A stretch of 33,235 nt of DNA from Verrucomicrobiota bacterium (GTDB lineage Bacteria > Verrucomicrobiota > Verrucomicrobiia > Opitutales > UBA953), in NCBI GenBank assembly GCA_009917805.1, contig RGES01000001.1:1-33235 (forward strand), in the 5' to 3' direction. Positions 1-33,016 of the stretch are shown here, piece after piece. The notes beneath the pieces are model-generated. The model was not told the origin of the DNA. It saw only the letters and a list, made by a program, of their open reading frames with translations, and did no database searches. The translations under genes were made by a program, and so were the position numbers. Numbering within the stretch: the stretch's first letter is position 1; each line of letters begins with the position of its first letter.

Positions 1-1
1 A

Positions 2-1579
2 CCCTCAGGTCAAGGCGCCGCCTTGGTCAACGGCGCCCCCCTGCGCCAACGCCTCGACGTCACCGAAGCCACGACGATCCAGCTGCCCTCCGCCCTGCTG
101 GTCGCCGCCCCCGCGGACCAGCAGAACTTCGCCTTCGTCCGTACGGACCTCTGGGTCCTCTTCGACGCCCAGACCGGCGACCAGCTCGGCGAGTTTGCTC
201 CGCAACGCCTCCTCGACGTCGCCCAGGAACTCGGCCGCGCCACCGACACCCTCGCCTGCACGCCGCAAGGGCTCGAAGTCGGCTTCAGCCTTTCGCAGAT
301 CGCGCCATTGCTCTCGCCTCAGGAAGAGGCTCCCGTCCGCCCGAGCGGCAAGGCGATGCTCGCCGCCGAACAGAATCGCGGCGCCCACCTCTGCCCGGTC
401 TGCTGGACGCGCTTCGACGCCGGCGACGCGCTGAGCATCGCCGTGCATGAAGACCTGCGCGGCGACCCGATCCTCGGCTCCGACGCGCGCCTGCGCTTCC
501 AGCCGACGCGCTTCAACGACCAAGGCCTCGCCCTCGACCCGATGGGCCTCGCCTGCACCGACATCGCCTGCCCGCACTGCCGCCGCCAGCTCCCGCCCGG
601 CTACCTCGACCGCCCGCACCGCATCATCTCGCTCATCGGCGCGCCCAGCGCCGGCAAGTCCTACTACCTCGCGGTGCTCACCCGCACGCTGCAGGACCGC
701 CTGCCCGAGGACTTCAACCTGGCCTTCAAGGACGGCGACCCCAGCGGCAACATGCTGCTCAATCAGATGCGCAACACGCTCTTCTCCGCGGCGACGCCGG
801 AAGACGCTTTGCTCGGCAAGACGGCGCTCGAAGGCGCGACCTACGAGAAACTCCCGCGTCTCGGCCGCATGGTCTCCCTGCCCCGTCCGTTCATCTACTC
901 GCTCAGCCGCCCGGGCCAGCAGCGCAACGAGACCTCGGTCATCCTGTACGACAACGCCGGCGAACACTTCGAACCCGGCATCGACATCCATGACTCGCCC
1001 GGCGCGATGCACGTCGCGACCTCGAGCGGCCTGATCTTCCTCTTCGACCCCACCGCCAACGCCCGCTTCAAGGCCAAGCTCGTCGGCGTCGAAGACCCTC
1101 AGCTCTCGCTCAAAGGACGCATCGACCAGCAGGACAGCATCCTCGCCGAGATGGAGACCCGCATGAAGCGCGTCCTCGGCCTCGCGCAGGACGAGCGCAT
1201 CAAGACCCCCCTCGCCTTCGTCGTCGGCAAGTCCGACACCTGGGAGAAGCTCCTGAGCTCGCCGCTCGAACCGGTCGTCGCGGCCGGCGGCCTCGACCTC
1301 GCCGCCGTCGCCCGCAATTCCGCGCGCGTCCGCGAAGTCCTCATCGCGCTCTGCCCGGGACTCGTGGCCTCGGCCGAATCGCTGGCGGAACAGATCAGCT
1401 ACTTCGCGGCCACCTCGTTCGGCCATACGCCGGTGATGATCCAAGCCGGCCTGAACAAAGGCCGCATCGCTCCCGACCCGCAGCGCCTCGCGCCCGCGCA
1501 CGTCGAAGAGCCCCTCTACTGGCTGATGCACCTCGCCTCCCCGGCGATGTTCCCCGCCGCCGAAAACACCGCCCGCTGA
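2..1579 (+). CDS. Zinc-ribbon-containing TRAFAC-class P-loop GTPase, first gene of a 4-gene operon and probably 5'-truncated by the window edge
   Basis: The frame is open from base 2 with high GC3. The only in-window start before the Zn-ribbon is TTG at 23. Two CxxC pairs are present (CPVC from nt ~392, CPHC from nt ~569). G1/Walker A is GAPSAGKS (nt 638-661), G3 is DNAGE (nt ~950) and G4-like is GKSD (nt 1226-1237). The stop overlaps the next start (TGATG at 1577-1581). Confidence 0.85.
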   Translation, partial: PSGQGAALVNGAPLRQRLDVTEATTIQLPSALLVAAPADQQNFAFVRTDLWVLFDAQTGDQLGEFAPQRLLDVAQELGRATDTLACTPQGLEVGFSLSQIAPLLSPQEEAPVRPSGKAMLAAEQNRGAHLCPVCWTRFDAGDALSIAVHEDLRGDPILGSDARLRFQPTRFNDQGLALDPMGLACTDIACPHCRRQLPPGYLDRPHRIISLIGAPSAGKSYYLAVLTRTLQDRLPEDFNLAFKDGDPSGNMLLNQMRNTLFSAATPEDALLGKTALEGATYEKLPRLGRMVSLPRPFIYSLSRPGQQRNETSVILYDNAGEHFEPGIDIHDSPGAMHVATSSGLIFLFDPTANARFKAKLVGVEDPQLSLKGRIDQQDSILAEMETRMKRVLGLAQDERIKTPLAFVVGKSDTWEKLLSSPLEPVVAAGGLDLAAVARNSARVREVLIALCPGLVASAESLAEQISYFAATSFGHTPVMIQAGLNKGRIAPDPQRLAPAHVEEPLYWLMHLASPAMFPAAENTAR

Positions 1580-3711
1580 TGCCCCTCCAACTTATCTTCA
1601 CGTCGGCGCCCCAGGGACTCACCCCCGGCCGCAGCGGTTATTGCACCGTCGCCCGGCATCGCGCCATCCCCGACCGCCTCGCGCAGCTGCTCGAATCCGT
1701 CGGCACGCCGCATGAACGCGCGGAAGGCGAGACGTTCACGTTCCGCATGCTCGAAGCCGGCGGCAAGAACTGGTGCGTGCTCTCGCGCTTCGTCGCCCGC
1801 GGCCTGGACTACACCCAGCGCGACAACCGCCTGGCCCATCACCTCATCTTCTCCCACGAGGAAGCCGCCGTGCTGCCGCCGCCGGCCGCGATCGCCGGCC
1901 GCTGGAAAGGCTGGCGCAACGAATGGTCCGGCGCGCCCACCTGGCTCGAAGGCGAAGACCGCCCGTTGCAGCTGGAAGCCCAGACCCCGCTGACGCCCGC
2001 CGTGACGTGGCGCGAAGAAACCGGCACGGGCGCCAAGGCCGCCTGGCTCGTCAACGCCTCCGGCCCCGCGGCCGTCGGCCTGCTCAATCCGCCGGAGACC
2101 CTCCGCCTCCTCCGCCTGCTTGCCGAGGCCTCCGCGCTCCTGGGCAAATCCGCCTGGGCCGCCTCGTTCACGACCGACGCCACGACCACGGGCAGCGACG
2201 GCTTCCTCTGGGCGGTCCATGCGACCTCCGCGCCGGCGATCATCGACTTCGCCACCGCGAAAGCCCTGCCCGCTCCGTCAGGTGACATCGCCCGTCAGGC
2301 CGCCGCCGGCCTGACTTCGCCCAAAGCCGCCGCGGGCCAGCCGCAACGCCGCGCCGGCGCGCCGGCCCCGGCCGCCGCCGGCAACAACGCGACCGCCTGG
2401 ATCATCGGTGGCGTCATCATCCTGGCCGCCGTCGCGATCGTCCTCTTCACGCTGAACCGCCAAGCCGAACCGACGCCCCCGCCGGTGGTGGTCGAGGTGA
2501 AGCCGCAGCCGCCGGCCGCCGACACCGCCAAGACCGATGAGATCCTGAAGACCCACCGCGCCCTGACCGAGATCCAAGGCCTGATGGACGCCGATGACTT
2601 CATGGGCGCCGCCAAGCTCTGGGCCGAGACGAGCGCCCTTTCGCCGAACTTCGTCCGCAACTACCGCGAACAGGTCCTGCCGCGCATCCTGAGCAACTTC
2701 TCCGCGAGCGTCACGAAGCAGCTGCTCGGCCGCCTCGACCGACCGGGCGTGCTCAACGATCCGAAGTCCATCCAGGAGGCGATCGCCGAAGCCAAGGAAG
2801 CCCTTCGCCTCGGCGCCGAGATCAAGGTGCCGCAGGACGAGCCCTGGAAGCGCCTGGAGGCCTGCCTCGCGCGCGCCCAGTCCCTGACGAGCATCGAAGT
2901 CCGGCCGACGATGGTCATCCCCGGCGAATGGCGCACCGGCGAGTCCGGCCCGAACTCGCCGTCGCAAGCCGACTTCCCGCTCTCGCGTGCGGCCACCGAC
3001 GCCGTGGCCAGGTTCGTCGAGGCTTCCGGCGCGACGCAGCGCAATTCGGTGCAGATCCGCATCCGCCTGCTCCCCTTCACGTCGCCGCACCTTCGCGACG
3101 ATCGCACGAAGTACCTCAACGGCGAGATCCGTCGCACGCCGCAGTCGACCTGGATCGAGTCCTCCCCGGAACCGGGCAAGCTCCCGACGATCGGCATCAA
3201 CCTCAGCAACCGCCGCAACGAGGTGACGCTCAACTTCCCCGACGGCGAAGGCGCGCGCGCCGGCGCGAATCGCCTGATCGAGGTGGCCCTCCCCAACGGA
3301 GACCGCCAGTGCTTCGCCCTCATCGGGGACGTCAAGGGACTGCAGCCGCTCAACCTCGGACCGGACGCCCTGCTGCTCGACGCCGACACCGGCGTGATCC
3401 GTCCCGCGCCTTGGGCCGAAAGCGCGGTCAACGCGTTCATCTGGGTCAACGGCTCGATCGGGCTCTACCCCGAGGGACACGAGTTCCCCGACCGCGACCT
3501 GCCCTCGATCCGCGCGACCCGCTCGGTCCTCGAGACCGACATCATCCGCCTCGAGAACAAGCAAGGCCCCGGCACCCCTCCCTACGAGCTCATCGCCAAC
3601 CGCCGGAAGCTCTTCAAGGAAGGCAAGTACATGCAAGCCGGCGCCCCGTGGTCGATCCAGGCCATCGACGCCAACGGCGCCGCCGGCCCGCGCCTCCTGG
3701 AATTCCGCTGA
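1579..3711 (+). CDS. Bitopic membrane protein with a GAP1-N-like (GTPase-associated protein 1 N-terminal-like) cytoplasmic module, one TM helix and a ~415-aa C-terminal region of unknown family
   Basis: The N-terminus MPLQLIFTSAPQGLTPGRSGYCTVA...DYTQRDNRLAHHLIF matches my recollection of the GAP1-N consensus (hhYTS..GL..G..Gf.tvA...faH.L). A TM helix AWIIGGVIILAAVAIVLFTL lies at nt ~2395-2454, followed by a Pro-rich linker. The start overlaps the upstream stop by 1 nt. GC3 is high. Confidence 0.8.
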   Translation: MPLQLIFTSAPQGLTPGRSGYCTVARHRAIPDRLAQLLESVGTPHERAEGETFTFRMLEAGGKNWCVLSRFVARGLDYTQRDNRLAHHLIFSHEEAAVLPPPAAIAGRWKGWRNEWSGAPTWLEGEDRPLQLEAQTPLTPAVTWREETGTGAKAAWLVNASGPAAVGLLNPPETLRLLRLLAEASALLGKSAWAASFTTDATTTGSDGFLWAVHATSAPAIIDFATAKALPAPSGDIARQAAAGLTSPKAAAGQPQRRAGAPAPAAAGNNATAWIIGGVIILAAVAIVLFTLNRQAEPTPPPVVVEVKPQPPAADTAKTDEILKTHRALTEIQGLMDADDFMGAAKLWAETSALSPNFVRNYREQVLPRILSNFSASVTKQLLGRLDRPGVLNDPKSIQEAIAEAKEALRLGAEIKVPQDEPWKRLEACLARAQSLTSIEVRPTMVIPGEWRTGESGPNSPSQADFPLSRAATDAVARFVEASGATQRNSVQIRIRLLPFTSPHLRDDRTKYLNGEIRRTPQSTWIESSPEPGKLPTIGINLSNRRNEVTLNFPDGEGARAGANRLIEVALPNGDRQCFALIGDVKGLQPLNLGPDALLLDADTGVIRPAPWAESAVNAFIWVNGSIGLYPEGHEFPDRDLPSIRATRSVLETDIIRLENKQGPGTPPYELIANRRKLFKEGKYMQAGAPWSIQAIDANGAAGPRLLEFR

Positions 3712-3714
3712 TCC

Positions 3715-6663
3715 ATGCAGCTCGAACGCCTCATCGCCCGCATCCGCGGCCAGCTCGAGCTCGGCACCCCCGATCTGGAAGCGCGTTCCCTCGCCGGCGA
3801 ATACGCCGCGCTCTGCCAGCGCGCCCGCGAACGCCTCGAACAGTGCGCGACGCTCGTCCGGAGCGGCAACGAGCACGCCGCCTTCCAGTCCGCGGAATCC
3901 GACCCGGACCTCCTCGGCCTCTGCGCCCTGCTGAGCTTCGCGGAATCCGACCGCTGGCACGCCCTCTGCCGTGAACGCGGCCTGCCGGCCGGCTTCCCGC
4001 TCGACGGGCAGCACGTCCTCGCGGTCGAAGGCCTCTACGGCCGCGAGATCGGCGAAAGCCACCCGCTCTACCGAGATTACCGCGACGCCATCCGCCGCCG
4101 CGAAGAGGACCGCGCCCTCTCGGTCCTGCGCTCGATCGTCCGCATCAATCCGGAAGACCCCAACGCCCGCTCCGAACTGGCCCGCCTTTCCGCGAAGTTC
4201 CTCCGGGAATCGCTCGGCAAGGTCGCGACCTTCTTCGAACAAGGCCGCGAGGAAGAAGCCGTCGAGCTGATGAACCGGATGGAACGCTTCGGCGCGAACG
4301 ACCTCGCCGGAGAACCGCGCTGGGACGACGCCCTCGCCCGCCGCGTCGCCTGGCTCCGCTCCAAGGCCGCCCAACAGGTCGCCACGCTCGTGACCGAAGC
4401 CGCCGAAGCGCGCGCCGGCGGACACTGGGAAGCCTGCGCCGCTTCGCTGGGCCGCGTCCGCTCGCTCGAACGCGACCACCAGCTCACCCTTTCGGCCACG
4501 GTCTCCGCCGAGGTCGCCGAGCTCGAAGGCTGGGCCGGCGAGCTGGCCGCCATCGACGAAGCCGAAGCGACCCTACGCGCCACGATCGAAGGGCTGAACG
4601 ACGAATGGGCCACCCTGCAGCAGGAAGCCGCGCGCGCCTCATCCCCCGCGATCCTCATCGTCCGCCTCAGCTCCTGGCTCGAACGCGCGACCCCGCAGGC
4701 GGAACGCCTGCCGGAAGGCATCCTCCGCGAAGCCCGCGCGCTGCGCCAGAACACCCGCGCGCGCCTCAATCGCCGCTACATGGTGCTGACGACCTCCTGG
4801 GTCGGCGGGCTCCTCCTGCTCATCGCCGGCGTGGTCTACTGGAACATCCTCAAGACGCAGGAAGAAGAATCCCGCGACCGCTTCTCCGAGGCCTCGCGCC
4901 TGATCGAGCTCTACGACCATCCGGCCGCGCTCGTCGCGCTCGAGGAATTCGAACGCGGCGGCCTTTCCGCCGCCGACCAAGCCGCCCGCAAGGCGCAGAC
5001 GATCCCGCTGCGCCAACGTCTCGCGACCCAGAACGCCGACGAGCAACGCCTTCGCCTCGAGGCCCTCGCCCTCGCCGACCGGCGCAAGCAAGGACTGACC
5101 TTGGGCAACGTCGCCGAGACCGAAAGCCGCGCCGGCAAATACCTCCAGGAATTCAACCAGGTCGGCGGCACCCTCCAAGCCAAGCTCAAGGCCATCCTGC
5201 CCGAACCGGAAGGCCTGCTGTCCGCCTGCCGCCAGATGCTCGACCGGACGCGCAACGACGTCGCCGCCCAGATCGCCGCGCTCAACAAGGCGATGGGCGA
5301 CGAAAATATCGCCGACCTCACCAAGGCGGCCGAAGCCCTCGAACGCCTTCGCCTGCTGCTGAAGACCCTCGCCGACGCCAAGGACAAGGACCTTGATTCC
5401 GCGCTCGCCGCCGCCGATCGCGCCGAGCTGCGCCTCTCCGGGGAGCGCAAGACGATCGCGGCGCTCCGGAGCCTCGGCAAGGCCGCCGACCTCGCGGGCT
5501 ACCTCGCCGCGTTGTCCGACACCGCCGCGAACACGGCCGGCGAGAAGTCCGACCTGAGCTCGCGCGCCTCCTTCGTCTTCACCCGGGCGCCCACCCTGCA
5601 GGCCCTCCCGCGCTCGGCGCTCGCGCCGCGCGTCGGCGCGATGTGGGACGCGGCCGCCACCGCCGACCCTTCCGGCATCTTCAATCCGCCCACGCTCACC
5701 GACGTCGAACAACGCGGCCTGCGCAGCCTCTCCGACACCTCGCTGGCCGACTCGCTCCGCCGCTTCACGCTCAACGGCTATTCGGTCCGCGGCGTCGCGA
5801 CCGGGCGGACCGTCTACGTGATCGGCGAGATCGTCGAATCGAAACGCCCCATCACCGACGGCCTCGAGTTCACCCAGAAGGCCAAGGAACTCACCCGCGA
5901 AGGCGCCGTGGTCGAGAGCACCTGGAGCCGGCGCGAATTCAACAACGGCGTGCGCGCCGGCGAAGAGATCGTCAGCCCGGCCGCGATCGGCGAGCTCGAC
6001 TTCATCCGCCAGGTCAGCCGCTTCCAGGACGCGAAGACCGGCAAGCTGCTCGAGCCCCTCATCCGCACGATGGAACGCGTCCGCCGCAGCGAATCGCGCT
6101 ACCCGGAACTGCGCGCCTACCAGCTCCAGGAACTCTACAAGCTCGCGACCTCCCGCCCCGACGCCTGGGGCCTGCTCTTCTCGCCGTCCGCCCAGCGCGA
6201 CGCCGACCAGCTGCGCCGGATCACGCAGAATTCGCTGCGCCCCTACGACTTCCTGTTCAAGGACAAGTGGGCCGACATCCAGCCGGAACTGCGCGCCTTC
6301 CTCGCGCCGCCGGGCGGCGCCGGCTACGCCGAGGAAGCCCGCTTCTGGCGCGCGACGTTCGCGAACCTGCGCAACCGTAAGCTGATCTTCGCCGGCTGGG
6401 CCGGCCGCGACGGCAAACCCGAGCTGCGGGAAACCATCAAGGGCAGCGCCCTCTACGGCCTCGACAACGAAGGCAAGGCCACCGTGCTCTTCCGCATCGG
6501 CGAAGACGGCGAGGTCAAGCGCGTCGCCGAAGCCGCCCCGCTCACCCCGCTGCTCCGCTACCCCGGCACCGTCGCCGAGGCCGCGCAGGCCGCCGGCATC
6601 CCGAAAGGCCTGCTCGCCCCCGACGGCGGGTGGGAAACCCTCCTCCAAGGACGAGATCTCTGA
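3715..6663 (+). CDS. Large (982 aa) bitopic membrane protein with a helical N-terminal region, one TM helix, a long alpha-helical/coiled-coil-like stretch and a C-terminal globular region; no recognised family
   Basis: The ATG lies 3 nt after the upstream stop. An Arg-rich flank RQNTRARLNRRY precedes the TM helix MVLTTSWVGGLLLLIAGVVYWNIL (nt ~4777-4845), which suggests an N-in topology. Composition is consistent with coding and GC3 is high. Confidence 0.8.
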   Translation: MQLERLIARIRGQLELGTPDLEARSLAGEYAALCQRARERLEQCATLVRSGNEHAAFQSAESDPDLLGLCALLSFAESDRWHALCRERGLPAGFPLDGQHVLAVEGLYGREIGESHPLYRDYRDAIRRREEDRALSVLRSIVRINPEDPNARSELARLSAKFLRESLGKVATFFEQGREEEAVELMNRMERFGANDLAGEPRWDDALARRVAWLRSKAAQQVATLVTEAAEARAGGHWEACAASLGRVRSLERDHQLTLSATVSAEVAELEGWAGELAAIDEAEATLRATIEGLNDEWATLQQEAARASSPAILIVRLSSWLERATPQAERLPEGILREARALRQNTRARLNRRYMVLTTSWVGGLLLLIAGVVYWNILKTQEEESRDRFSEASRLIELYDHPAALVALEEFERGGLSAADQAARKAQTIPLRQRLATQNADEQRLRLEALALADRRKQGLTLGNVAETESRAGKYLQEFNQVGGTLQAKLKAILPEPEGLLSACRQMLDRTRNDVAAQIAALNKAMGDENIADLTKAAEALERLRLLLKTLADAKDKDLDSALAAADRAELRLSGERKTIAALRSLGKAADLAGYLAALSDTAANTAGEKSDLSSRASFVFTRAPTLQALPRSALAPRVGAMWDAAATADPSGIFNPPTLTDVEQRGLRSLSDTSLADSLRRFTLNGYSVRGVATGRTVYVIGEIVESKRPITDGLEFTQKAKELTREGAVVESTWSRREFNNGVRAGEEIVSPAAIGELDFIRQVSRFQDAKTGKLLEPLIRTMERVRRSESRYPELRAYQLQELYKLATSRPDAWGLLFSPSAQRDADQLRRITQNSLRPYDFLFKDKWADIQPELRAFLAPPGGAGYAEEARFWRATFANLRNRKLIFAGWAGRDGKPELRETIKGSALYGLDNEGKATVLFRIGEDGEVKRVAEAAPLTPLLRYPGTVAEAAQAAGIPKGLLAPDGGWETLLQGRDL

Positions 6664-6666
6664 CCG

Positions 6667-7299
6667 ATGTCACGCCCCACCCAATTCCGCCTCCGCTGGA
6701 AAGGCGCCGTCACCGGCCCCTTCCCGCTCCTGCGCGTCAGCGAGATGCTCCGCGCCGGCGAGATCAGCCTCCTGCATAACATCGAGGTCGACGGTTCCTG
6801 GATGACCGTGCGCGACTACTTCCGCGCGATCGGCCTCACCCGGGCGCCTTCGGCTTCGGCGGCGGAGAATTCCGGACTCGGCGGCGAAGCTCCGCCGCCG
6901 CCGCCCGGCGCCGAACATCCGCTCGGCGAGGCGCTCACGCCTGACGCCGCCCGCAACGCCGCCGGGGAATCGCTCGAACGCACGGTCCGCGAAGGCTACC
7001 TCTGGTGCGGCTCGACCTTCCTGCTTCCGCCGCTGTTCGCCTTGCTGGTCTACGTGATCTACATCCTGGACGGCGACCATCAGCTCTCGCGCACGATGTT
7101 CCTCATCATGCTCGGCTTCACGACCACGCCGGCGGCGCTCCTGCCGATCCTGTTCGTCCGCAAGCTGGGCCTGACCCTCGAGCAAGAAGGCTTGTCGGAC
7201 ATCCGCCAAACCCAGGGAAATCTGGTGATCGTCCTCGGTTTCCTGAGCCTGGCCCTCTGGATGCTCTGCTTCTTCGTGCTGCTCCCCAGCCGTCCGTGA
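6667..7299 (+). CDS. GYF_2 (DUF4339-type) domain protein with about three C-terminal TM helices
   Basis: The N-terminus RLRWKGAVTGPFPLLRVSEMLRAGEISLLHNIEVDGSWMTVRDYF fits the bacterial GYF_2 pattern. Hydrophobic helices are YLWCGSTFLLPPLFALLVYVIYIL, MFLIMLGFTTTPAALLPILFV and LVIVLGFLSLALWMLCFFVLL. The ATG lies 3 nt after the upstream stop. Confidence 0.8.
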   Translation: MSRPTQFRLRWKGAVTGPFPLLRVSEMLRAGEISLLHNIEVDGSWMTVRDYFRAIGLTRAPSASAAENSGLGGEAPPPPPGAEHPLGEALTPDAARNAAGESLERTVREGYLWCGSTFLLPPLFALLVYVIYILDGDHQLSRTMFLIMLGFTTTPAALLPILFVRKLGLTLEQEGLSDIRQTQGNLVIVLGFLSLALWMLCFFVLLPSRP

Positions 7300-19435: not shown

Positions 19436-20704
19436 TCAACCTTTGGCCTGCTTCACCAAGCGACGCAGGATGACCGCCGCTTCCGCCTGACCAGAGGGGA
19501 AGAAGAACACGACGTCGCCGCCCGTGTCCTTGTCGATCTCGATGGCGTTGTTGTAGACGGTGACGTCGAGCACCTTGGCGTACTTGAAGTTCAGGCTCTT
19601 GAGGCTGCCGGAGAAGATGACGCGCTTCGAGGTGAAGACCAGGATGCCGGAATCCACCTTCTCGAGCCGCTGCTCGGTCTGACGCTCGACCTCATAGGAA
19701 CCGGTTCGATAACGCAACGGCCCCCAGATCTTGATGCTGGTGCCGAACCCGCCGTAGCTGCGACGGGTGGTGACTCGCTTGTTGAGGCCAAGCTCCACAT
19801 GCTGCGTCCAGAAACAACCCTCGTTCCCCAGATCCAGCTCGCATGGCACCTCCTTCAGCGGCGAACGGCAGAGCGACCAAAGCCGCTGCGCGCTGTCGAT
19901 CCGGTCGACCAGCTTGTCATCCATGCTCAGATTGATGTCCATCTGCTTGATTTCGGAGGCGAAGGCGGCGTAGGCCGCGGGATCCATGACCTCGCCGCCG
20001 TCCTCTTGTCTCATCAACGCCTTGAGGCGCTGTTCGAAATACGACTGCATGGCGGCGCCGAAAGTCTCCTTGACCTTCTCCTCGGAGAGGGGGACTTCCT
20101 TGCCGAGCAGGTTGATCTGTTCCCTTTTCTGCTGAGGCGGGATATCGCGCAGCAGGACGGTGAGCATGCCGATCCGACAATAACTGGCGAAGGCTTCGCC
20201 GTGGATCGCCTCGGCCGCCGACGCGTCCAAACCGAAACTGCGGGCGAGGTTGCCGAGGTCGGTCTTCTCCTGCGGCGCAAAATAGCGGTCGGACAGATAG
20301 GCTTCGACGGCCTGGCGATACCATTTGAGGAGGTCTTCCCGACAACGCTTGCGGACGTCATAGCCCAGTTTTTCACCCAAGGAAGCCCACGCTTCTTCGG
20401 GGATCAGGCACTGCGTCGGTGCCTTCGAAAGCAGGTCCCAGACGGCCAGCAAGCCGGCCTGATAGCTCTCCCGCCCCAGCATGCCGTCCAACAGGTTGGC
20501 CCCCTTCTCGACCGGACGCGGAAAGGGCAGGACTCGGACCGTAGCCGGCAAGACGGCCAAAGTCAGCCATCCTGCCATGCCAGGCTTCCAGTAATGATCG
20601 GTCGGCTTTAATTCGCCCGAGGCCAGCTTGGAGCGGACCTCATCCGGAGCCCAGGCGCCGATTTCGACGCCGGCGCGGGCGATATGGACCGGTTCGGTTG
20701 ACAT
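19436..20704 (-). CDS. GYF_2-domain protein with a helical middle region and a C-terminal bacterial PH-like region
   Basis: The N-terminus VHIARAGVEIGAWAPDEVRSKLASGELKPTDHYWKPGMAGWLTLAVL fits the GYF_2 pattern. The C-terminus GILVFTSKRVIFSGS...FKYAKVLDVTVYNNAIEID...VVFFF resembles bPH/GRAM-like folds (inference). The ATG at 20704 lies 4 nt after the upstream gene's stop. Confidence 0.75.
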   Translation of the reverse strand: MSTEPVHIARAGVEIGAWAPDEVRSKLASGELKPTDHYWKPGMAGWLTLAVLPATVRVLPFPRPVEKGANLLDGMLGRESYQAGLLAVWDLLSKAPTQCLIPEEAWASLGEKLGYDVRKRCREDLLKWYRQAVEAYLSDRYFAPQEKTDLGNLARSFGLDASAAEAIHGEAFASYCRIGMLTVLLRDIPPQQKREQINLLGKEVPLSEEKVKETFGAAMQSYFEQRLKALMRQEDGGEVMDPAAYAAFASEIKQMDINLSMDDKLVDRIDSAQRLWSLCRSPLKEVPCELDLGNEGCFWTQHVELGLNKRVTTRRSYGGFGTSIKIWGPLRYRTGSYEVERQTEQRLEKVDSGILVFTSKRVIFSGSLKSLNFKYAKVLDVTVYNNAIEIDKDTGGDVVFFFPSGQAEAAVILRRLVKQAKG

Positions 20705-20708
20705 GATC

Positions 20709-21530
20709 TTACTTGAGGCGGAGGAGGATCGCCTCGCCGACCTGGGCGCCGAGGAAGTCGTAGCCTTCGCCGGTGAAGTGGACGTCGTTGGGATTCTGCA
20801 ACTTGGCGAGATGGGGCGTGATCGCGGCGAAGAGGTCGTCGGTCGGGATGCCATGCTTCTTCATGACCTCGGCGGCGAGCGCGTTCTTCTCGACGATCGA
20901 CGCGGCGGTCTGCTTCTGCGCCGGGTTATCCGGGACCGGGGTCGTGCTGGCCCAGATGAGCTTCGCCCCGGTCTTCTCGAGACGGGTTACGATCTCCTCG
21001 AGCCGCTTGACGTAGTCGGCCGCCGGCGTCGCCCGGTCATGGATACCGAAATTGAAATGGATGACGTCCCACTTTCCTTCGCCCAGCCAGACATCGAGGT
21101 TCTTGACGCCCGAGGCGGTCGGGCCGCAGTTCGCCGGCGCGCGATGGATGTTGGCCTTGCCCTCCAGCACCTTGCGGGTGGGCTGGGTATAACCACGCGA
21201 GACGGAATCCCCGATCAGCAGCACACGCGGGAGCTTGGGATCGTCCTTCACGAAGTCCCAGGCGTTGGATTTACCGGCGATCTTATCGCGTTTGTGAAGC
21301 GGCAGGTAGAAATTGCCGAGCTGTCCCTGGAGGACTTTCTCCCAGGCTTGCTCCTCGGGCGAGAGCTTCGCCAACCAGGCCTGATAACGCTCGTCGACGA
21401 CCTTTTCCTGCGCCGCTTTCTTGGCCGCCGCCTGCGCCGCCGCCTCCTTGGCGTTCGTCGGTTCACCTTTCGGGGGTTCGGCGGCGACAAGGGCAAAAGA
21501 AAGGCAGAGCAAAACGAGCAGGGGCTTCAT
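20709..21530 (-). CDS. Secreted SGNH/GDSL-family hydrolase (esterase)
   Basis: A signal peptide MKPLLVLLCLSFALVAA is present. The SGNH blocks are LLIGDSVSRGY (I), ANCGP (II), FNFGIHD (III) and NDVHFT (V). The track ORF extension beyond 21530 overlaps the next gene and is rejected. Confidence 0.85.
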   Translation of the reverse strand: MKPLLVLLCLSFALVAAEPPKGEPTNAKEAAAQAAAKKAAQEKVVDERYQAWLAKLSPEEQAWEKVLQGQLGNFYLPLHKRDKIAGKSNAWDFVKDDPKLPRVLLIGDSVSRGYTQPTRKVLEGKANIHRAPANCGPTASGVKNLDVWLGEGKWDVIHFNFGIHDRATPAADYVKRLEEIVTRLEKTGAKLIWASTTPVPDNPAQKQTAASIVEKNALAAEVMKKHGIPTDDLFAAITPHLAKLQNPNDVHFTGEGYDFLGAQVGEAILLRLK

Positions 21531-29332: not shown

Positions 29333-32300
29333 TTACCAAAGGACCGGCTGGGTCACCCCGATATTACGCTGCACTTCGGGGTCGGTCGGGTCGGACGGCA
29401 GCTTCTTCCAGAGGTCGAGATAGGCCGTCTCCCCGAACTGGCGACCGGCGAAGAGCAGGCCAGGCTGACGGGCCGGCCAGCCTTCCCAAGCCTGCACGTC
29501 GGGCTTCAGGGTCCACTTGGACTTATCGGCGAGGAACGGATAAAGGAACGCCACGGCCTTCCGGATGCCGCGGCCGTCGGGCAACGTGAACTCCCAGAGG
29601 TTGTCCTCCTTGGTGGAGAGCACCTGACAAAGGAGCACCATGTTATCCAGCTGGAAGATCGAGTAGCCGTAGGGCTTGGTGCGGGCCAGCTCCAGCGGGA
29701 ACCCGCCGTCGACGCCCATCTGCTTGCCGACGAAGACCTCCTTGTACTGGTTGCGACAGGCTGCGAGCTTCTCCTGGTCGCCGATGAAGTCCGCGTAGAC
29801 GGCAAGCTGCAGGTAGAACGCCACGGCGTGGTTGTTCTTCGCGGCGGCCTCCTCCTTGCCGTTCTTGCTGGTGACCATCCACTCGGCGAGCTCGCGGAAC
29901 CAGGCGCGGAGGTCCTTGGCCATGCCGGCGGGAAAAGCGGGGGAACGCTCCATGGCCTTCACGGCGGCGGGGACTTCGATCAGGTGCAATGCGTCGATGA
30001 CTCCGATGCCTCGGCCGGGCGAGACGCCGGGGACGGCCTGCGCGAAATTGAGGTTCGGGTTCATGCGGAGCTTGGCATCCAGGAAGAATACCCGGAGGAG
30101 CTCGGCGGCCTTGACGACATACTTGTCGTCGCCCGTGATCTTATAGGCGGCGGCGAGCGCCGACACGGAATCGCGCAAGGTCTTCACTACCAGGCGATGC
30201 TGGCTGAAGTTCTCCGGATTCGTCTCACCGTCGCGACGGATGTACGGCAGACCGTTCGGCTTCGTGGGATCCGGCCACCAGTAGTCGCCGTTCGAGTAGA
30301 AGTCGTTGGCCCCGCCCTCGCTGAGCTTGGCCGGGAACGCGGTGATGCTGACCGGGGCCTGCGCAAGGGCCTTGTCGGCGGCCTTGAGGATCCGCTCGCG
30401 GTCGATGGCGGCGACGTCGACCACGACCTTGGGCGAGACGGGCGTGCCGGCGACGGCGGAAGCCGCCGCGGCGGCCGGCGCGACCTCCGCCTTGGCCTTG
30501 CCCTTCGTCTTGGACTTGGAGGCGGGCTTGTCGGCCTTGGGCTTGGCGCCATCGGCCTTCGGCGTGGCTTCGGCCACCGACTTGTTCTCGACGTTGAGGA
30601 ACTGGGTCCGGCGGCCTTCGGAAGAAGCGCTGAACACGGCCTTATGTCCGGTGACCTTGGCGCTGATCTGCGCCCGGCCGTTGTACATCTGGACGACGCG
30701 GGAGCCGGTGGAGGTACCGAGGTTATCCAGCAGCTGGCCTTCGCCGACCATGCCGAAGCGGACGATGTTGGCGCAATCGAGGCACGGCACGCCTTCGGCG
30801 TCGGCCATCCGCGCCTCGAGGGTGACGACGCCATCCTTCTGCGCCAGCTCGGTCAACGTGAGTTTGGCCGGCTTGCCCCAAGGCTTCGACTGATAGCCGA
30901 CCGTAAGCTCGTCGGCGAGCTCGCCGGACGCGGACTTGGCGACGGCGCGCAGCTTGTTCGGGCCATCCTTCAGGACGACGTTCCAGCGGAGGCCGGCCGC
31001 CGGGAAGTCCTGGCTGTCGCGCTTCTTGGCTCCGAGGCTCTTGCCGTCGGCGAAGAGCTCGACTTCGGCGCAGTTGGAATAGACCCGGATCTCCTTGGCT
31101 TCGCCGGGCTTGCCCCAGCGCACGGGCCATTCATGGCCGAGCAGGCGCACCATGGGCTTGTCGGACCAATAGCTCTGGAAGACGTAGTAACCTTCCTTCG
31201 GCGTTCCGTCGCGTTCGACGACGCCCTTCTGGTTGACGCGCGGCACGGGGTTCTCCGGGCGCAGCGGCGTGGCGAAATCCTTGAAGATCCACTGGGCGCT
31301 GCCGGTCAGCCAAGGCATCTTCTCCTGCTCCTTGAGATGCCAGTCGAAGAGATTGACCATGTAGCTCTCGGACCAGTCGCCGTCCTTGGACATGCGCACT
31401 TTCCCGCCGGTCTTCTTGTAGGCCTTGCCCTTCTCGGCCGTGCCCTCGCCCACGGCGATCTTCTCGATCATCTTCTCGGGCTCTTCGGCGAAACGACGGG
31501 CGTGGCTGTCGCCACCCCACTCGGCATGGAAGAAATGCCGGGTATCCTTCAAGGCCTTCTCGGCGGAGGCGGCGTATTCGGTGTAGCGGCCCGAGTACCA
31601 GCCGGCCCAGATGCTCGGCGAATAGACGTCGACGATGTCTTTGCAGAAATCGCAACGGCGGATGGTCGTCGGACGCGAGGCGTCCAGCTTGTGCGCCAGG
31701 TCGTTCAATTCCGACATGAACGCGCGGATGGCGTCCTTGTCCTGCTTCTCGAAATCGCCCGGCCAGTCGTTCTCGTTGCCGAGGCCCCACAGGATCACGG
31801 AAGGATGGTTACCATGCTGCTCGATGAGGGACTTGAGCATGTCGCGACACTGCTGCTTGTAGCGGTCGCCGCCGATGCCGCCGCGGCACCACGGGATTTC
31901 CTCCCAGACCAGCAAGCCGAGCTCATCGCAGAGCTTCAGCACGAGCGGGGCCTGCTGATAATGACCGAGACGCACGAAGTTGGCGCCCATGTCCTTGATC
32001 GCGACGAGCGTCTGACGGACGACCTCGTCCGGCACGGCCGCGGCCACGCCGGCATGGTCTTCGTGGTAATGCGTGCCCTTGAGGAGCAGACGCTCGCCGT
32101 TGAGCTTGAAAGGCCCGTGTTCGACCCACTCGAAGCTGCGGAAACCGAAGGACTCGGCGACGACCTGTTCACCATGCTTGGACCGAAGGGTCACCGTCGC
32201 CCGATAGAGCTGCGGGGATTTCGGGGACCAAAGCGACGGGTTCGCCAAGGAGAACTTGGCGGTGACGATGCCTTGCGAAGCCGAGACCGCCGCGCCCTCC

Positions 32301-33016
32301 GAGCGAGCGGCGACCTTGCCGGCCGGATCGGTGACCACCACCTCGCAGGTGACGTCGTCAGCCAGCGCCTGCGGATTGGCCAAGCGGACTTCGACGGAAA
32401 CCTCGCCCTTGGCATCCTTGACGGAGGCGGCGACGCCGACACGGGCGACCGAGATGGCCGGCACGTAGACCAGGCTGACATGACGATAGAGGCCGCCGTA
32501 ACGGTTGAAGTCGCTGAGGTCGGAAGGGATGCTCTCGGCGTCGCGCGAGTTATCGCAGAGGACCGCGACCGGCACCTCGCCCTTGAATTCCGGACGGGAG
32601 GACGCCTTGGCCGCCGCTTCGGTGATATCGACGGTCCACTCGTCGTAACCGCCGACGTGGGCGCCGACCTTCTGGGTATAGACGAAGACTTCCGATTTCT
32701 GGCCGGCACCGTCGAACTTCAGGAGCGTACGACCGTTCGGATACGGATTGGCGACCTTGAGCTTGGTACGGTACCAGCCCTGCCCTTGATAATAACGGAC
32801 GTCGGGATCGACGGAGTCGCGGCCGTTGAAGCAATGCGGCAAGGCGACGGGCGACCAGGTGACGTTGTCGCTGGCGGCATCGCCGCGCCAGACCTCCCAG
32901 GTGCTCCCCAAGGTGCCTTGGTAATATTCCCAGCCGGCGGACAGCCGCTGGACGTTCTCCGCCGCAGGGGACGCGAGGGCGAGCAGGACGAAGAAAAGAC
33001 GCGCAAACGTATTCAT
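29333..33016 (-). CDS. Secreted fusion protein with an N-terminal glycoside hydrolase family 2 module and a C-terminal alginate-lyase-like (alpha/alpha barrel polysaccharide lyase) module
   Basis: A signal peptide MNTFARLFFVLLALASPAA. The GH2 sugar-binding region is ALPHCFN...YYQGQGWYRTKL...LKFDGAGQKSEVFVYTQKVGAHVGGYDEWTVDIT. TIM-barrel motifs are NFVRLGHYQ, WGLGNEN and HAEWGG. A K/A/P-rich linker follows. The lyase part has FYSNGDYWWPDP, PYIRRDGETNP and NNHAVAFYLQ, as in alginate-lyase-domain proteins. Confidence 0.85.
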   Translation of the reverse strand: MNTFARLFFVLLALASPAAENVQRLSAGWEYYQGTLGSTWEVWRGDAASDNVTWSPVALPHCFNGRDSVDPDVRYYQGQGWYRTKLKVANPYPNGRTLLKFDGAGQKSEVFVYTQKVGAHVGGYDEWTVDITEAAAKASSRPEFKGEVPVAVLCDNSRDAESIPSDLSDFNRYGGLYRHVSLVYVPAISVARVGVAASVKDAKGEVSVEVRLANPQALADDVTCEVVVTDPAGKVAARSEGAAVSASQGIVTAKFSLANPSLWSPKSPQLYRATVTLRSKHGEQVVAESFGFRSFEWVEHGPFKLNGERLLLKGTHYHEDHAGVAAAVPDEVVRQTLVAIKDMGANFVRLGHYQQAPLVLKLCDELGLLVWEEIPWCRGGIGGDRYKQQCRDMLKSLIEQHGNHPSVILWGLGNENDWPGDFEKQDKDAIRAFMSELNDLAHKLDASRPTTIRRCDFCKDIVDVYSPSIWAGWYSGRYTEYAASAEKALKDTRHFFHAEWGGDSHARRFAEEPEKMIEKIAVGEGTAEKGKAYKKTGGKVRMSKDGDWSESYMVNLFDWHLKEQEKMPWLTGSAQWIFKDFATPLRPENPVPRVNQKGVVERDGTPKEGYYVFQSYWSDKPMVRLLGHEWPVRWGKPGEAKEIRVYSNCAEVELFADGKSLGAKKRDSQDFPAAGLRWNVVLKDGPNKLRAVAKSASGELADELTVGYQSKPWGKPAKLTLTELAQKDGVVTLEARMADAEGVPCLDCANIVRFGMVGEGQLLDNLGTSTGSRVVQMYNGRAQISAKVTGHKAVFSASSEGRRTQFLNVENKSVAEATPKADGAKPKADKPASKSKTKGKAKAEVAPAAAAASAVAGTPVSPKVVVDVAAIDRERILKAADKALAQAPVSITAFPAKLSEGGANDFYSNGDYWWPDPTKPNGLPYIRRDGETNPENFSQHRLVVKTLRDSVSALAAAYKITGDDKYVVKAAELLRVFFLDAKLRMNPNLNFAQAVPGVSPGRGIGVIDALHLIEVPAAVKAMERSPAFPAGMAKDLRAWFRELAEWMVTSKNGKEEAAAKNNHAVAFYLQLAVYADFIGDQEKLAACRNQYKEVFVGKQMGVDGGFPLELARTKPYGYSIFQLDNMVLLCQVLSTKEDNLWEFTLPDGRGIRKAVAFLYPFLADKSKWTLKPDVQAWEGWPARQPGLLFAGRQFGETAYLDLWKKLPSDPTDPEVQRNIGVTQPVLW

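What the first reader, a model, noticed from the sequence alone, without database searches (positions are those of the whole stretch)
1579..3711. GAP1-N-like module fused to a transmembrane helix and a novel C-terminal domain
The first ~95 aa (MPLQLIFTSAPQGLTPGRSGYCTVARH...FTFRMLEAGGKNWCVLSRFVARGLDYTQRDNRLAHHLIF) follow the pattern I associate with the N-terminal domain of GTPase-associated protein 1: a conserved hh(Y/F)TS..GL..G..G(F/Y)..vA start and a later DY.GR.N.hAH.L element. The rest does not follow the GAP1 middle and C-domains. Instead there is a low-complexity Ala/Pro segment, one TM helix (nt 2395-2454), a Pro-rich linker and a mixed helical/beta region. This looks like domain shuffling that tethers a GTPase partner to the membrane.
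Basis: partly seen in the sequence, partly recalled or inferred. Interest (0 to 1): 0.65.

Follow-up and report, generated by a model that had tools for sequence, protein, structure and literature searches.

The report
Membrane-spanning GAP1-N2 partner of a GTPase
The gene encodes a membrane-spanning partner of a bacterial switch GTPase, a kind of system already predicted by computer in 2020. This version has an outer domain with no detected match, and it sits as a fixed, slowly evolving four-gene block in freshwater Opitutales (Verrucomicrobiota), which points to signalling across the cell envelope rather than a fast-changing defence gene.

Summary
ORF 1579-3711 (710 aa) starts with a significant Pfam GAP1-N2 domain (E 3.6e-16). 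It has one strong TM helix (residues 274-292) and a 415-aa C-terminal region with no Pfam, PDB-sequence or Foldseek match.

The interpretation needs three corrections.
- Residues ~126-230 are probably a divergent GAP1-M domain: sub-threshold PF20014 hits in 5 of 20 orthologues.
- GAP1-N2 proteins fused to TM segments were already described in general terms by Kaur et al. 2020.
- The protein is more than a tether. The confidently modelled ectodomain (helical bundle plus an Ig-like beta-rich domain) is under purifying selection.

The gene is the second of four tightly packed genes:
- a Zn-ribbon DO-GTPase2-like GTPase (cut by the window start);
- this protein;
- a 982-aa bitopic helical-repeat protein;
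- a GYF-like protein with three TM helices.

The block lies between a divergent ECF sigma gene and rsfS/nadD in all 24 species genomes found. It adjoins the sigma gene in 72 of 72 informative metagenomic loci. dN/dS is 0.05-0.36.

My best reading is a vertically inherited trans-envelope signalling module built on the DO-GTPase/GAP1 core. It is a new variant of a known, experimentally uncharacterised kind, of moderate interest.

The parts
2..1579 (+). Gene A, 5'-truncated by the window start. It is a Zn-ribbon plus DO-GTPase2-like P-loop GTPase. The full-length orthologue is 577 aa, so about 59 codons are missing here.
   Evidence: The frame is open from nt 2. The full-length orthologue is L002:8268-10001. 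Pfam DO-GTPase2 scores 25.6 bits, E 1.1e-5, against a cut-off of 27; four orthologues score 23.7-26.7 bits. Many of the 120 listed homologues carry precomputed PF19993. Motifs: CPVC nt 392-403, CPHC nt 569-580, Walker A GAPSAGKS nt 638-661, Walker B DNAGE nt 950-964, GKSD nt 1226-1237.
1579..3711 (+). Gene B, the finding: a 710-aa bitopic GAP1-N2 protein. Its ATG overlaps the TGA stop of gene A (TGATG).
1588..1947 (+). GAP1-N2 domain (residues 4-123), inferred to be cytoplasmic
   Evidence: Pfam PF20013, E 3.6e-16, 59.9 bits. dN/dS 0.04-0.12.
1954..2268 (+). Conserved middle region (residues 126-230), probably a divergent GAP1-M domain. The weak profile match covers about residues 160-202 (nt 2056-2184).
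   Evidence: PF20014 GAP1-M is sub-threshold in 5 of 20 orthologues, best E 0.0017. Invariant W144, R145, G149, G151, K153 and an AAWL...AEASALLG...FTTD motif.
2269..2397 (+). Ala/Pro/Gly low-complexity linker (residues 231-273), the fastest-evolving part of the protein
   Evidence: Alignment. dN/dS 0.18-0.68 for residues 231-295.
2398..2454 (+). Single transmembrane helix (residues 274-292)
   Evidence: Kyte-Doolittle mean 2.75. It is the only TM peak in 123 of 123 homologues.
2455..2514 (+). Pro-rich linker (residues 293-312), inferred to be periplasmic
   Evidence: Sequence. Low pLDDT for residues 293-308.
2515..2886 (+). Five-helix bundle (residues 313-436) of the ectodomain
   Evidence: AF2 helices 313-337, 341-354, 356-386, 395-414 and 421-436 at pLDDT 85-97
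2908..3708 (+). Beta-rich ectodomain (residues 444-710). It contains an Ig-like (Big_1-type) sandwich at about residues 512-582 (nt 3112-3324), the invariant GLYPxGHxFPDR motif (nt 3460-3495) and an invariant C-terminal EFR (nt 3700-3708).
   Evidence: AF2 model. An 11-fold match to the Big_1/MG repeats of P0133. A weak BACON hit in one orthologue. Invariant columns.
3715..6663 (+). Gene C, a 982-aa bitopic protein. It has a cytoplasmic helical-repeat (TPR-like) N-half (residues 1-355), a TM helix (residues 356-376, nt 4780-4842), and a periplasmic long-helix plus alpha/beta C-half.
   Evidence: AF2 pLDDT 76.7. Only generic helical-repeat fold matches. The family has 220 members of 979-987 aa with no Pfam domain. 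K+R flank counts of 5.8 against 2.7 indicate N-in.
6667..7299 (+). Gene D, 210 aa: a GYF-like N-domain (residues 7-50, nt 6685-6816), a PPPPPG linker (nt 6892-6909) and three TM helices (nt 7012-7068, 7102-7158, 7222-7278).
   Evidence: The GYF assignment is inconclusive: Pfam GYF_2 E 0.22 in 1 of 11 orthologues, and hhalign is in register with a real GYF_2 domain but at E 0.14.

Best explanation
Gene B encodes the GAP1-type ('GTPase-associated protein 1') adaptor of a four-gene, inner-membrane-embedded DO-GTPase module.

Shown:
- The N-terminus is a GAP1-N2 domain followed by a probable degenerate GAP1-M domain.
- The gene is packed against an upstream Zn-ribbon DO-GTPase2-like gene: the stop and start codons overlap.
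- One TM helix separates this half from a 415-aa region that folds confidently into a helical bundle plus an Ig-like beta-rich domain with no detected relative.
- Two further membrane proteins follow with 3-nt gaps.
- The whole block is syntenic, apparently single-copy and under purifying selection across a freshwater Opitutales lineage.

Inferred:
- The N-half is cytoplasmic and binds or regulates the GTPase.
- The C-half is periplasmic. Alone or together with the periplasmic half of gene C, it binds an envelope or extracellular ligand.
- Ligand-dependent conformational change is passed through the TM helices to the GAP1-N2/M module, which sets the nucleotide state of the GTPase switch, or the signal runs in the opposite direction.
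- Gene C's cytoplasmic helical repeats act as a scaffold.
- Gene D's GYF-like domain docks on a proline-rich motif: its own PPPPPG, or the conserved LPPPA of B.

The block is fixed in a housekeeping neighbourhood, does not vary in content and has no recognisable toxin or effector domain. I therefore think it works as a lineage-specific trans-envelope signalling or organising machine rather than as a rapidly diversifying anti-invader system.
For: - Domains: GAP1-N2 at E 3.6e-16. GAP1-M is the top, sub-threshold family for residues 120-240 in 5 of 20 orthologues.
- GTPase: DO-GTPase2 at 23.7-26.7 bits in five copies, with precomputed PF19993 in many of the listed orthologues. The Walker B motif DNAGE carries the glutamate that Kaur et al. 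describe, and there is a Zn ribbon.
- Operon: A and B overlap at TGATG; B-C and C-D are separated by 3 nt.
- Membrane parts: one TM helix in B in 123 of 123 homologues; gene C is clearly N-in.
- Ectodomain: pLDDT 85-97. Similarity to Ig-like Big_1 repeats fits an extracytoplasmic location.
- Synteny: the A-B-C-D order and the flanks (ptsI, putative anti-sigma and ECF sigma on one side; rsfS, nadD and lpxI on the other) are kept in every one of the 24 species loci long enough to show them. They are also kept in relatives where B is only 40-41% identical. In the metagenome scan, 72 of 72 informative loci carrying the sigma gene also carry gene A.
- Selection: dN/dS is 0.05-0.13 for A, 0.10-0.25 for B, 0.08-0.31 for C and 0.13-0.36 for D. 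The cytoplasmic parts are the most constrained.
- Negative searches: no PADLOC or PHROGs hit.
Against: - No physical A-B or B-C interaction was tested; no multimer prediction was available.
- Topology is inferred. B's TM flanks carry slightly more K+R on the C-terminal side (1.2 against 0.65), so the positive-inside rule does not support N-in.
- The GAP1-N2/M half was modelled poorly (pLDDT below 50).
- The family as a whole was proposed to be a biological-conflict system. Conservation alone does not exclude an immune function.
- The ligand, the output and the direction of signalling are all unknown.
- The metagenome sample was selected by similarity to the ECF sigma (93-100% identity). It therefore cannot reveal relatives that have lost both the sigma gene and the module.
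Confidence: 0.6

Rival explanations
1. It is a biological-conflict (abortive-infection-like) system, as Kaur et al. proposed for DO-GTPase/GAP1 systems. In this reading the ectodomains of B and C sense a phage or another invader at the envelope. The GTPase sets an activation threshold. The TM-rich protein D, or C, is the membrane-damaging effector.
For: The family-level proposal, and the explicit mention of GAP1-N2 systems coupled to GYF-plus-TM-rich proteins, are in PMC7159879. The non-enzymatic Ig-like ectodomain fits their 'sensor' idea. D evolves fastest, with dN/dS up to 0.36-0.40 in its TM part.
Against: - There is no presence/absence or content variation: all 24 species loci long enough to show it, and 72 of 72 informative metagenomic loci, have the same genes in the same place.
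- All parts are under purifying selection, at rates similar to the neighbouring rsfS and nadD.
- No recognisable effector domain was found, and there is no PADLOC or PHROGs match.
- The FNIII 'sensor' protein typical of N2 systems is absent.
- The neighbourhood is housekeeping, not a defence island.
Confidence: 0.25
2. The block is an input or output arm of the adjacent ECF sigma / putative anti-sigma pair. In this reading B and C act as accessory trans-membrane sensors that modulate, or are transcribed by, that sigma factor.
For: The ECF sigma gene lies about 118 bp away and is transcribed divergently in every locus examined. The sigma is 93-100% identical across the lineage. Pfam confirms Sigma70_r2, Sigma70_r4_2 and Sigma70_ECF. 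Gene C has a weak fold match to the trans-membrane anti-sigma factor DdvA (E 0.018).
Against: - The sigma already has its own small downstream partner gene.
- The DdvA match has a TM-score of 0.07 and looks like generic helical-repeat similarity.
- I did not recognise an ECF-type promoter in the aligned intergenic region.
- Kaur et al. describe no sigma linkage for the family in the passages read.
- Adjacency may be only inherited synteny.
Confidence: 0.1
3. The TM helix is only a membrane anchor that concentrates the GAP1-GTPase complex at the membrane. The C-terminal region would then be a structural spacer with no sensing role, which is the first reader's 'tether' reading.
For: One TM helix follows the GAP1 half. 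Kaur et al. infer that many of these systems function close to the membrane.
Against: A 415-aa region with dN/dS 0.08-0.3, about 40 invariant positions (including GLYPxGHxFPDR and the terminal EFR) and a confident fold is far more than an anchor needs.
Confidence: 0.05

Closest known systems
GAP1-N2-type DO-GTPase ('GTPase-centric') systems of Kaur, Iyer, Burroughs and Aravind, eLife 2020 (PMC7159879). These are computationally defined; my literature search found no experimental work.
   Same: - A GAP1-N2 domain protein is encoded directly downstream of a Zn-ribbon DO-GTPase with a Walker-B glutamate.
- A TM segment lies C-terminal to the GAP1 part, with an extracytoplasmic beta-sandwich domain.
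- Other TM-containing components are in the operon.
- Verrucomicrobia are among the listed host phyla.
   Different: - No GAP1-C was detected, and GAP1-M is only sub-threshold.
- There is no FNIII-repeat protein, tubulin, HSP70, kinase, SLATT or other listed effector theme.
- There is a single GTPase gene.
- The ectodomain and the 982-aa partner are lineage-restricted orphan families.
- The locus is invariant, syntenic and under purifying selection, rather than variable between close relatives.
[quoted passage not shown]
   Same: The last gene (D) has an N-terminal GYF-like module followed by a proline-rich linker and three TM helices.
   Different: There is one GYF-like module, not two, and the assignment is not statistically supported. 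There is no trypsin domain. The host is Opitutales, not Planctomycetes.
Bitopic trans-envelope signalling proteins, with a cytoplasmic regulatory domain, one TM helix and a periplasmic sensor. Examples are large trans-membrane anti-sigma factors such as DdvA.
   Same: The overall layout of B and C matches: an N-in cytoplasmic domain, a single TM helix, a Pro-rich linker and a large periplasmic domain. An ECF sigma gene is adjacent.
   Different: There is no sequence homology and no convincing fold homology (E 0.018, TM-score 0.07). The cytoplasmic partner here is a P-loop GTPase, not a sigma factor.

Membership tests
GAP1 (GTPase-associated protein 1), N2 subtype | N-terminal GAP1-N2 domain | tested here: met
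   PF20013 at E 3.6e-16 and 59.9 bits against a cut-off of 24, residues 4-123. Also found in distant orthologues P0122 and P0124 and precomputed for all 120 listed homologues.
GAP1 (GTPase-associated protein 1), N2 subtype | Encoded immediately downstream of (or fused to) a DO-GTPase gene | tested here: met
   The gene A stop overlaps the gene B start. Gene A is DO-GTPase2-like. The order is conserved in all loci.
GAP1 (GTPase-associated protein 1), N2 subtype | GAP1-M middle domain | tested here: inconclusive
   The window copy gives no hit at E<=1. PF20014 is the top family for residues 120-240 in 5 of 20 orthologues, best E 0.0017 and 19 bits against a cut-off of 24.
GAP1 (GTPase-associated protein 1), N2 subtype | GAP1-C C-terminal domain | tested here: not met
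   No Pfam family at E<=10 in the 415 aa after the TM helix in 10 diverse orthologues, apart from one BACON hit at E 0.063 and one COG4_N hit at E 0.2. None was found in the full protein either. Caveat: I saw no positive control showing that a GAP1-C model is in the library.
GAP1-N2-type GTPase-centric system (operon level) | Operon-encoded protein with rapidly evolving FNIII repeats | tested here: not met
   No FN3 hit in A-D. Gene C is helical repeats plus small beta units. B has one Ig-like (Big_1-type) sandwich, which may be a functional stand-in.
GAP1-N2-type GTPase-centric system (operon level) | Constant core combined with effector or sensor components that vary even between close relatives | tested here: not met
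   The gene content and order are identical in every one of the 24 species loci long enough to show them, in the metagenomic loci of comparable length, and in distant relatives. dN/dS is 0.05-0.36. The only variation seen is an extra PATR gene after D in a distant clade.
DO-GTPase2 (gene A) | Match to the DO-GTPase2 profile | tested here: inconclusive
   The window copy scores 25.6 bits, E 1.1e-5, just under the cut-off of 27. Four orthologues score 23.7-26.7 bits. Many of the 120 listed homologues carry precomputed PF19993.
DO-GTPase2 (gene A) | TRAFAC-type P-loop with a conserved glutamate in Walker B, plus N-terminal Zn ribbon(s) | tested here: met
   GAPSAGKS, DNAGE and CPVC...CPHC are read directly from the sequence. 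The feature definition comes from PMC7159879.
GYF domain protein (gene D) | Match to a GYF profile | tested here: inconclusive
   Pfam GYF_2 appears in only 1 of 11 orthologues, at E 0.22. hhalign against the window's own bona fide GYF_2 protein aligns in register (residues 7-50 against 56-101) but at E 0.14.
Known anti-phage defence systems (PADLOC-DB 2.0) | Any component matching a defence-system model | tested here: not met
   No relevant hit at E<=0.1 for A-D. No PHROGs hit.

The most novel reading that the evidence does not exclude
In this Opitutales lineage the DO-GTPase/GAP1-N2 core has been domesticated into an essential or near-essential trans-envelope machine. It would be made of two bitopic proteins with previously unseen periplasmic folds, a cytoplasmic Zn-ribbon GTPase and a GYF-like membrane protein. 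It would report on or organise the cell envelope, possibly in concert with the neighbouring ultra-conserved ECF sigma factor. This would be the first indication that the GAP1 systems, so far interpreted only as conflict systems, include housekeeping signalling modules.
Probability: 0.4. Interest if true: 0.6.

Novelty: new variant of a known kind. Interest (0 to 1): 0.42.

Why it matters
DO-GTPase/GAP1 systems are known only from one comparative-genomics study, and my literature search found no member that has been studied experimentally.

This variant is a clean, minimal four-gene version in a fixed chromosomal position, with a large set of orthologues for covariation analysis. Its ectodomain already models with high confidence. 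That makes it a tractable entry point for asking what GAP1-N2 does to its GTPase.

It also allows a test of whether these systems are always immune devices. Here the pattern of evolution (invariant content, purifying selection, housekeeping neighbours) argues for a cellular signalling role.

The orphan ectodomain of B and the 982-aa protein C also define two protein families without a Pfam model. One of them was tested, and is restricted, at the level of 1.84 billion representative proteins.

Tried and rejected
- PADLOC and PHROGs scans of A-D gave nothing. NCBIfam gave nothing useful.
- PDB sequence searches found no relatives, using A and C as single sequences and B as a profile.
- Foldseek of the B model against the PDB and BFVD gave no hit at E<=0.001. 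The top hits (STAT coiled-coil plus Ig, Ig V-domains, EBV gp350) have TM-scores of 0.1-0.39 and only say 'helical bundle plus beta-sandwich'.
- Foldseek of the C model gave only generic TPR/helical-repeat hits.
- tblastn of B residues 1-235 against plasmids found no match, so I could not obtain canonical GAP1-N2/M/C proteins for a profile-profile test.
- The positive-inside rule is uninformative for the topology of B.
- hhalign of D against a real GYF_2 domain was not significant.
- An alignment of the ECF-sigma/gene A intergenic region showed conserved blocks, but no promoter I could assign.
- The one supplementary file of Kaur et al. that is held as text contains no Opitutae, GAP1-N2 or GYF entries.
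- Literature searches found no paper on these systems other than Kaur et al. 2020.
- I rejected a chance hit (E 3.6e-16, reproduced in distant orthologues), a mobile or defence-island context (housekeeping flanks) and a phage origin.

Full report
**1. What is there**

The window is about 68% G+C. On the + strand it carries four tightly packed genes:

| Gene | Coordinates | Size | Junction with the next gene |
|---|---|---|---|
| A | open from nt 2 to 1579 | 5'-truncated | stop overlaps the start of B (TGATG) |
| B (the finding) | 1579-3711 | 710 aa | 3-nt gap |
| C | 3715-6663 | 982 aa | 3-nt gap |
| D | 6667-7299 | 210 aa | - |

The window cuts off about the first 59 codons of A. The full-length orthologue in locus L002 is 577 aa.

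**2. Check of the observation**

B's N-terminus matches Pfam GAP1-N2 (PF20013) over residues 4-123 with E = 3.6e-16 and 59.9 bits, against a cut-off of 24. The same family is precomputed for all 120 listed homologues and is found in orthologues only 33-34% identical in the C-terminal half.

- There is one strong hydrophobic helix at residues 274-292 (nt 2398-2454). It is the sole TM peak in 123 of 123 full-length homologues.
- An Ala/Pro-rich linker precedes it and a Pro-rich linker follows it.

**3. The rest of protein B**

*Middle region.* Residues 126-230 are strongly conserved: W144, R145, G149, G151, K153, AAWL, AEASALLG and FTTD. The window copy gives no Pfam hit there. When this segment from 20 diverse orthologues is scanned alone, GAP1-M (PF20014) is the top family, hit by 5 of 20. 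The best hit has E 0.0017 and 19 bits against a cut-off of 24, and covers about residues 160-202. The 'missing' middle domain is therefore probably present in divergent form.

*Region after the TM helix.* The 415 residues after the TM helix have no Pfam match at E<=10 in 10 diverse orthologues, apart from one BACON hit at E 0.063 and one COG4_N hit at E 0.2. They also have no PDB sequence relative.

An exhaustive phmmer search of 1.84 billion representative proteins finds only 19 hits. The three full-length ones (P0121, P0122, P0124) have the same GAP1-N2 + TM + C-terminal layout. The single exception is a 2681-aa protein with VWA and Big_1/MG domains, whose Ig-like repeats match B residues ~512-573 eleven times.

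*Structure.* AlphaFold2, run with a 24-sequence alignment, models residues ~310-710 at pLDDT 85-97. It gives five helices (313-436) and then a beta-rich domain (444-710) with a few helices. The GAP1-N2/M half is modelled poorly (pLDDT below 50). Foldseek finds nothing at E<=0.001 in the PDB or BFVD. The best hits (STAT coiled-coil plus Ig, Ig V-domains) have TM-scores of 0.1-0.39. No relative was detected for the C-terminal domain beyond a generic Ig-like element. The AlphaFold DB could not be searched.

*Conserved positions.* Invariant positions include GLYPxGHxFPDR (residues 628-639) and the terminal EFR.

**4. The neighbours**

*Gene A.* A has a four-Cys Zn ribbon (CPVC...CPHC), Walker A GAPSAGKS, Walker B DNAGE and GKSD. 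It hits Pfam DO-GTPase2 just under threshold: 25.6 bits here and 23.7-26.7 bits in four orthologues, against a cut-off of 27. Many of the 120 listed homologues carry the precomputed PF19993 annotation. The Walker-B glutamate and the N-terminal Zn ribbon are the features Kaur et al. give for DO-GTPases.

*Gene C.* C has one TM helix (residues 356-376) with a clear positive-inside bias, K+R 5.8 against 2.7, which indicates N-in. The AlphaFold2 model (pLDDT 76.7) shows the following:
- helical repeats in the cytoplasmic 355 residues;
- long helices in the periplasmic part;
- two small beta units.

The only fold matches are generic TPR/helical-repeat proteins. The family has 220 members of nearly constant length (979-987 aa) with no Pfam domain.

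*Gene D.* D has an N-terminal module with the GYF_2-like pattern, a PPPPPG linker and three TM helices. The GYF assignment is not statistically supported.

None of the four proteins matches PADLOC, PHROGs or NCBIfam usefully.

**5. Distribution and evolution**

*Species genomes.* A scan of GTDB species genomes found the B gene in 24 assemblies. All are freshwater Opitutae/Opitutales (Verrucomicrobiota) MAGs or isolates, with B at 55-96% identity, one locus per assembly. In every locus long enough, the order is A-B-C-D and the flanks are the same:
- upstream: ptsI, a small putative anti-sigma gene and an ECF sigma gene transcribed divergently;
- downstream: rsfS, nadD and lpxI.

*More distant relatives.* The arrangement persists in relatives where B is about 40-41% identical.

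*Metagenome test.* Probing metagenomes with the ECF sigma returned 80 loci. Of these, 72 had at least 600 bp on the relevant side, and all 72 carry gene A. All loci that were long enough carry A-B-C-D followed by rsfS.

*Selection.* Nei-Gojobori dN/dS values against seven orthologous loci were as follows:

| Gene or part | dN/dS |
|---|---|
| A | 0.05-0.13 |
| B, whole | 0.10-0.25 |
| B, GAP1-N2 domain | 0.04-0.12 |
| B, linker/TM region | 0.18-0.68 |
| B, ectodomain | 0.08-0.37 |
| C | 0.08-0.31 |
| D | 0.13-0.36 |

At the greatest divergence sampled among the GTDB loci (L024), B (55%) and C (57%) have diverged about as much as rsfS (58%) and nadD (65%). The block is therefore vertically inherited, apparently single-copy, invariant in content and under purifying selection. 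That is not the behaviour of a variable defence island.

**6. Mechanism**

*Shown:* domain identities, TM helices, operon packing, a confident ectodomain fold, conservation and synteny.

*Inferred:*
- Neither A nor B has a signal peptide, and GAP1-N2 must meet a cytoplasmic GTPase. The N-half of B is therefore cytoplasmic and, with one TM helix, the C-half is periplasmic. An Ig-like element and a Pro-rich post-TM linker fit that placement. The positive-inside rule does not help for B.
- B and C would place large conserved domains on both sides of the inner membrane, next to a cytoplasmic GTPase switch and a small polytopic protein.
- The most economical reading is a trans-envelope signalling or organising complex. 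The ectodomains bind an envelope or external ligand. The GAP1-N2/M module couples this to the nucleotide state of the GTPase, or the signal runs the other way.
- C's helical repeats act as a scaffold. D's GYF-like module binds a proline-rich motif, either B's conserved LPPPA or its own PPPPPG.

I put about 0.6 on this composite. Within it, I put about 0.9 on 'B is the GAP1-type partner of the adjacent DO-GTPase and spans the membrane'.

**7. Rivals**

- **Conflict-system model of Kaur et al. (0.25).** Sensor ectodomains, a GTPase threshold and a membrane effector remain possible. The model is disfavoured by the lack of variability, the absence of any recognisable effector and the housekeeping context.
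- **Functional tie to the adjacent ECF sigma (0.1).** The invariant linkage suggests this. It rests on adjacency and a very weak DdvA fold hit.
- **Pure membrane anchor (0.05).** This is inconsistent with a constrained 415-aa ectodomain.

**8. Comparison with what is known**

The closest known kind is the GAP1-N2-type DO-GTPase system (PMC7159879). That paper already notes three things:
- GAP1 fused to C-terminal TM segments, with extracellular domains;
- verrucomicrobial hosts;
- GYF-plus-TM-rich partners, in planctomycetes.

Membership tests gave these results:

| Feature | Result |
|---|---|
| GAP1-N2 domain | met |
| Adjacency to a DO-GTPase gene | met |
| GAP1-M domain | inconclusive |
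| GAP1-C domain | not met |
| FNIII partner protein | not met |
| Variable effector components | not met |
| DO-GTPase2 profile match for gene A | borderline |

I found no experimental work on any such system. I therefore file the finding as a new variant of a known, computationally defined kind.

**9. Verdict**

The added value is threefold:
- a probable hidden GAP1-M domain;
- two orphan periplasmic families (B's ectodomain and protein C), one of which models at high confidence;
- clear evidence that this version behaves as a fixed, lineage-core module.

Interest is moderate (0.42).

Noticed in passing
L002:7057-8150 (just upstream of the window; not in the window): An ECF sigma factor (Sigma70_r2, Sigma70_r4_2 and Sigma70_ECF) and a small downstream gene (a putative anti-sigma, with no Pfam hit) are transcribed divergently from gene A, about 118 bp away. 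The sigma is 93-100% identical across loci in which B is only 51-90% identical and the putative anti-sigma is 42-97% identical. Linkage to gene A holds in 72 of 72 informative loci.
   Followed up: partly
window 1-25: The window starts inside gene A. The frame is open from nt 2, and the TTG at nt 23 that the ORF tool reports is not the real start. Orthologues begin about 59 codons upstream with MFTSSKKNP. The ~190 aa of A before the P-loop, apart from the Zn ribbon, have no assigned domain.
   Followed up: yes
window 19436-20854 (- strand): A 472-aa protein with a bona fide Pfam GYF_2 domain (28.1 bits, residues 57-101) is encoded 12 kb from the operon. It is a second GYF-type protein in the same neighbourhood.
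   Followed up: partly
window 3700-3708 and 6625-6660: The extreme C-termini of both bitopic proteins are invariant across all aligned orthologues: B ends in EFR, and C ends in GGWExLLQGRDL. This suggests recognition of the free C-termini, or tight packing. It is unexplained.
   Followed up: no
window 1873-1890 and 6892-6909: There are two conserved proline motifs that could be ligands for a GYF-type module. One is LPPPAA, inside the Pfam GAP1-N2 match of B, with L99, P100, P101 and A103 nearly invariant. The other is PPPPPG, in D's own linker, and it is lost in the L018/L019 clade.
   Followed up: no
L107:17311-19581 and L109:17398-19704: In the more distant clade (A about 62-63% identical) an extra 756-768-aa gene with PATR (autotransporter-associated) repeats sits between D and the rsfS-side flank (in L109 the gene at that position has no Pfam hit). 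This is the only content variation seen at the locus.
   Followed up: no
L018 (CALQLO010000020.1): A MAG labelled 'Akkermansia muciniphila' carries this Opitutae-type locus with the same flanks. The taxonomic label or the binning of that record looks wrong.
   Followed up: no
window 29333-33016 (- strand): A 1227-aa protein combines glycoside hydrolase family 2 domains with a C-terminal alginate lyase domain (E 5e-76). An equally long spurious ORF lies on the opposite strand. The rest of the window is housekeeping: rsfS, nadD, lpxI, panB, gpsA, purA-like, mgtE and a deacetylase.
   Followed up: partly
window 1579-2500 (protein B residues 1-310): AlphaFold2 gave pLDDT below 50 for the well-conserved GAP1-N2/M half, but 85-97 for the orphan ectodomain, using the same alignment.
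   Followed up: no
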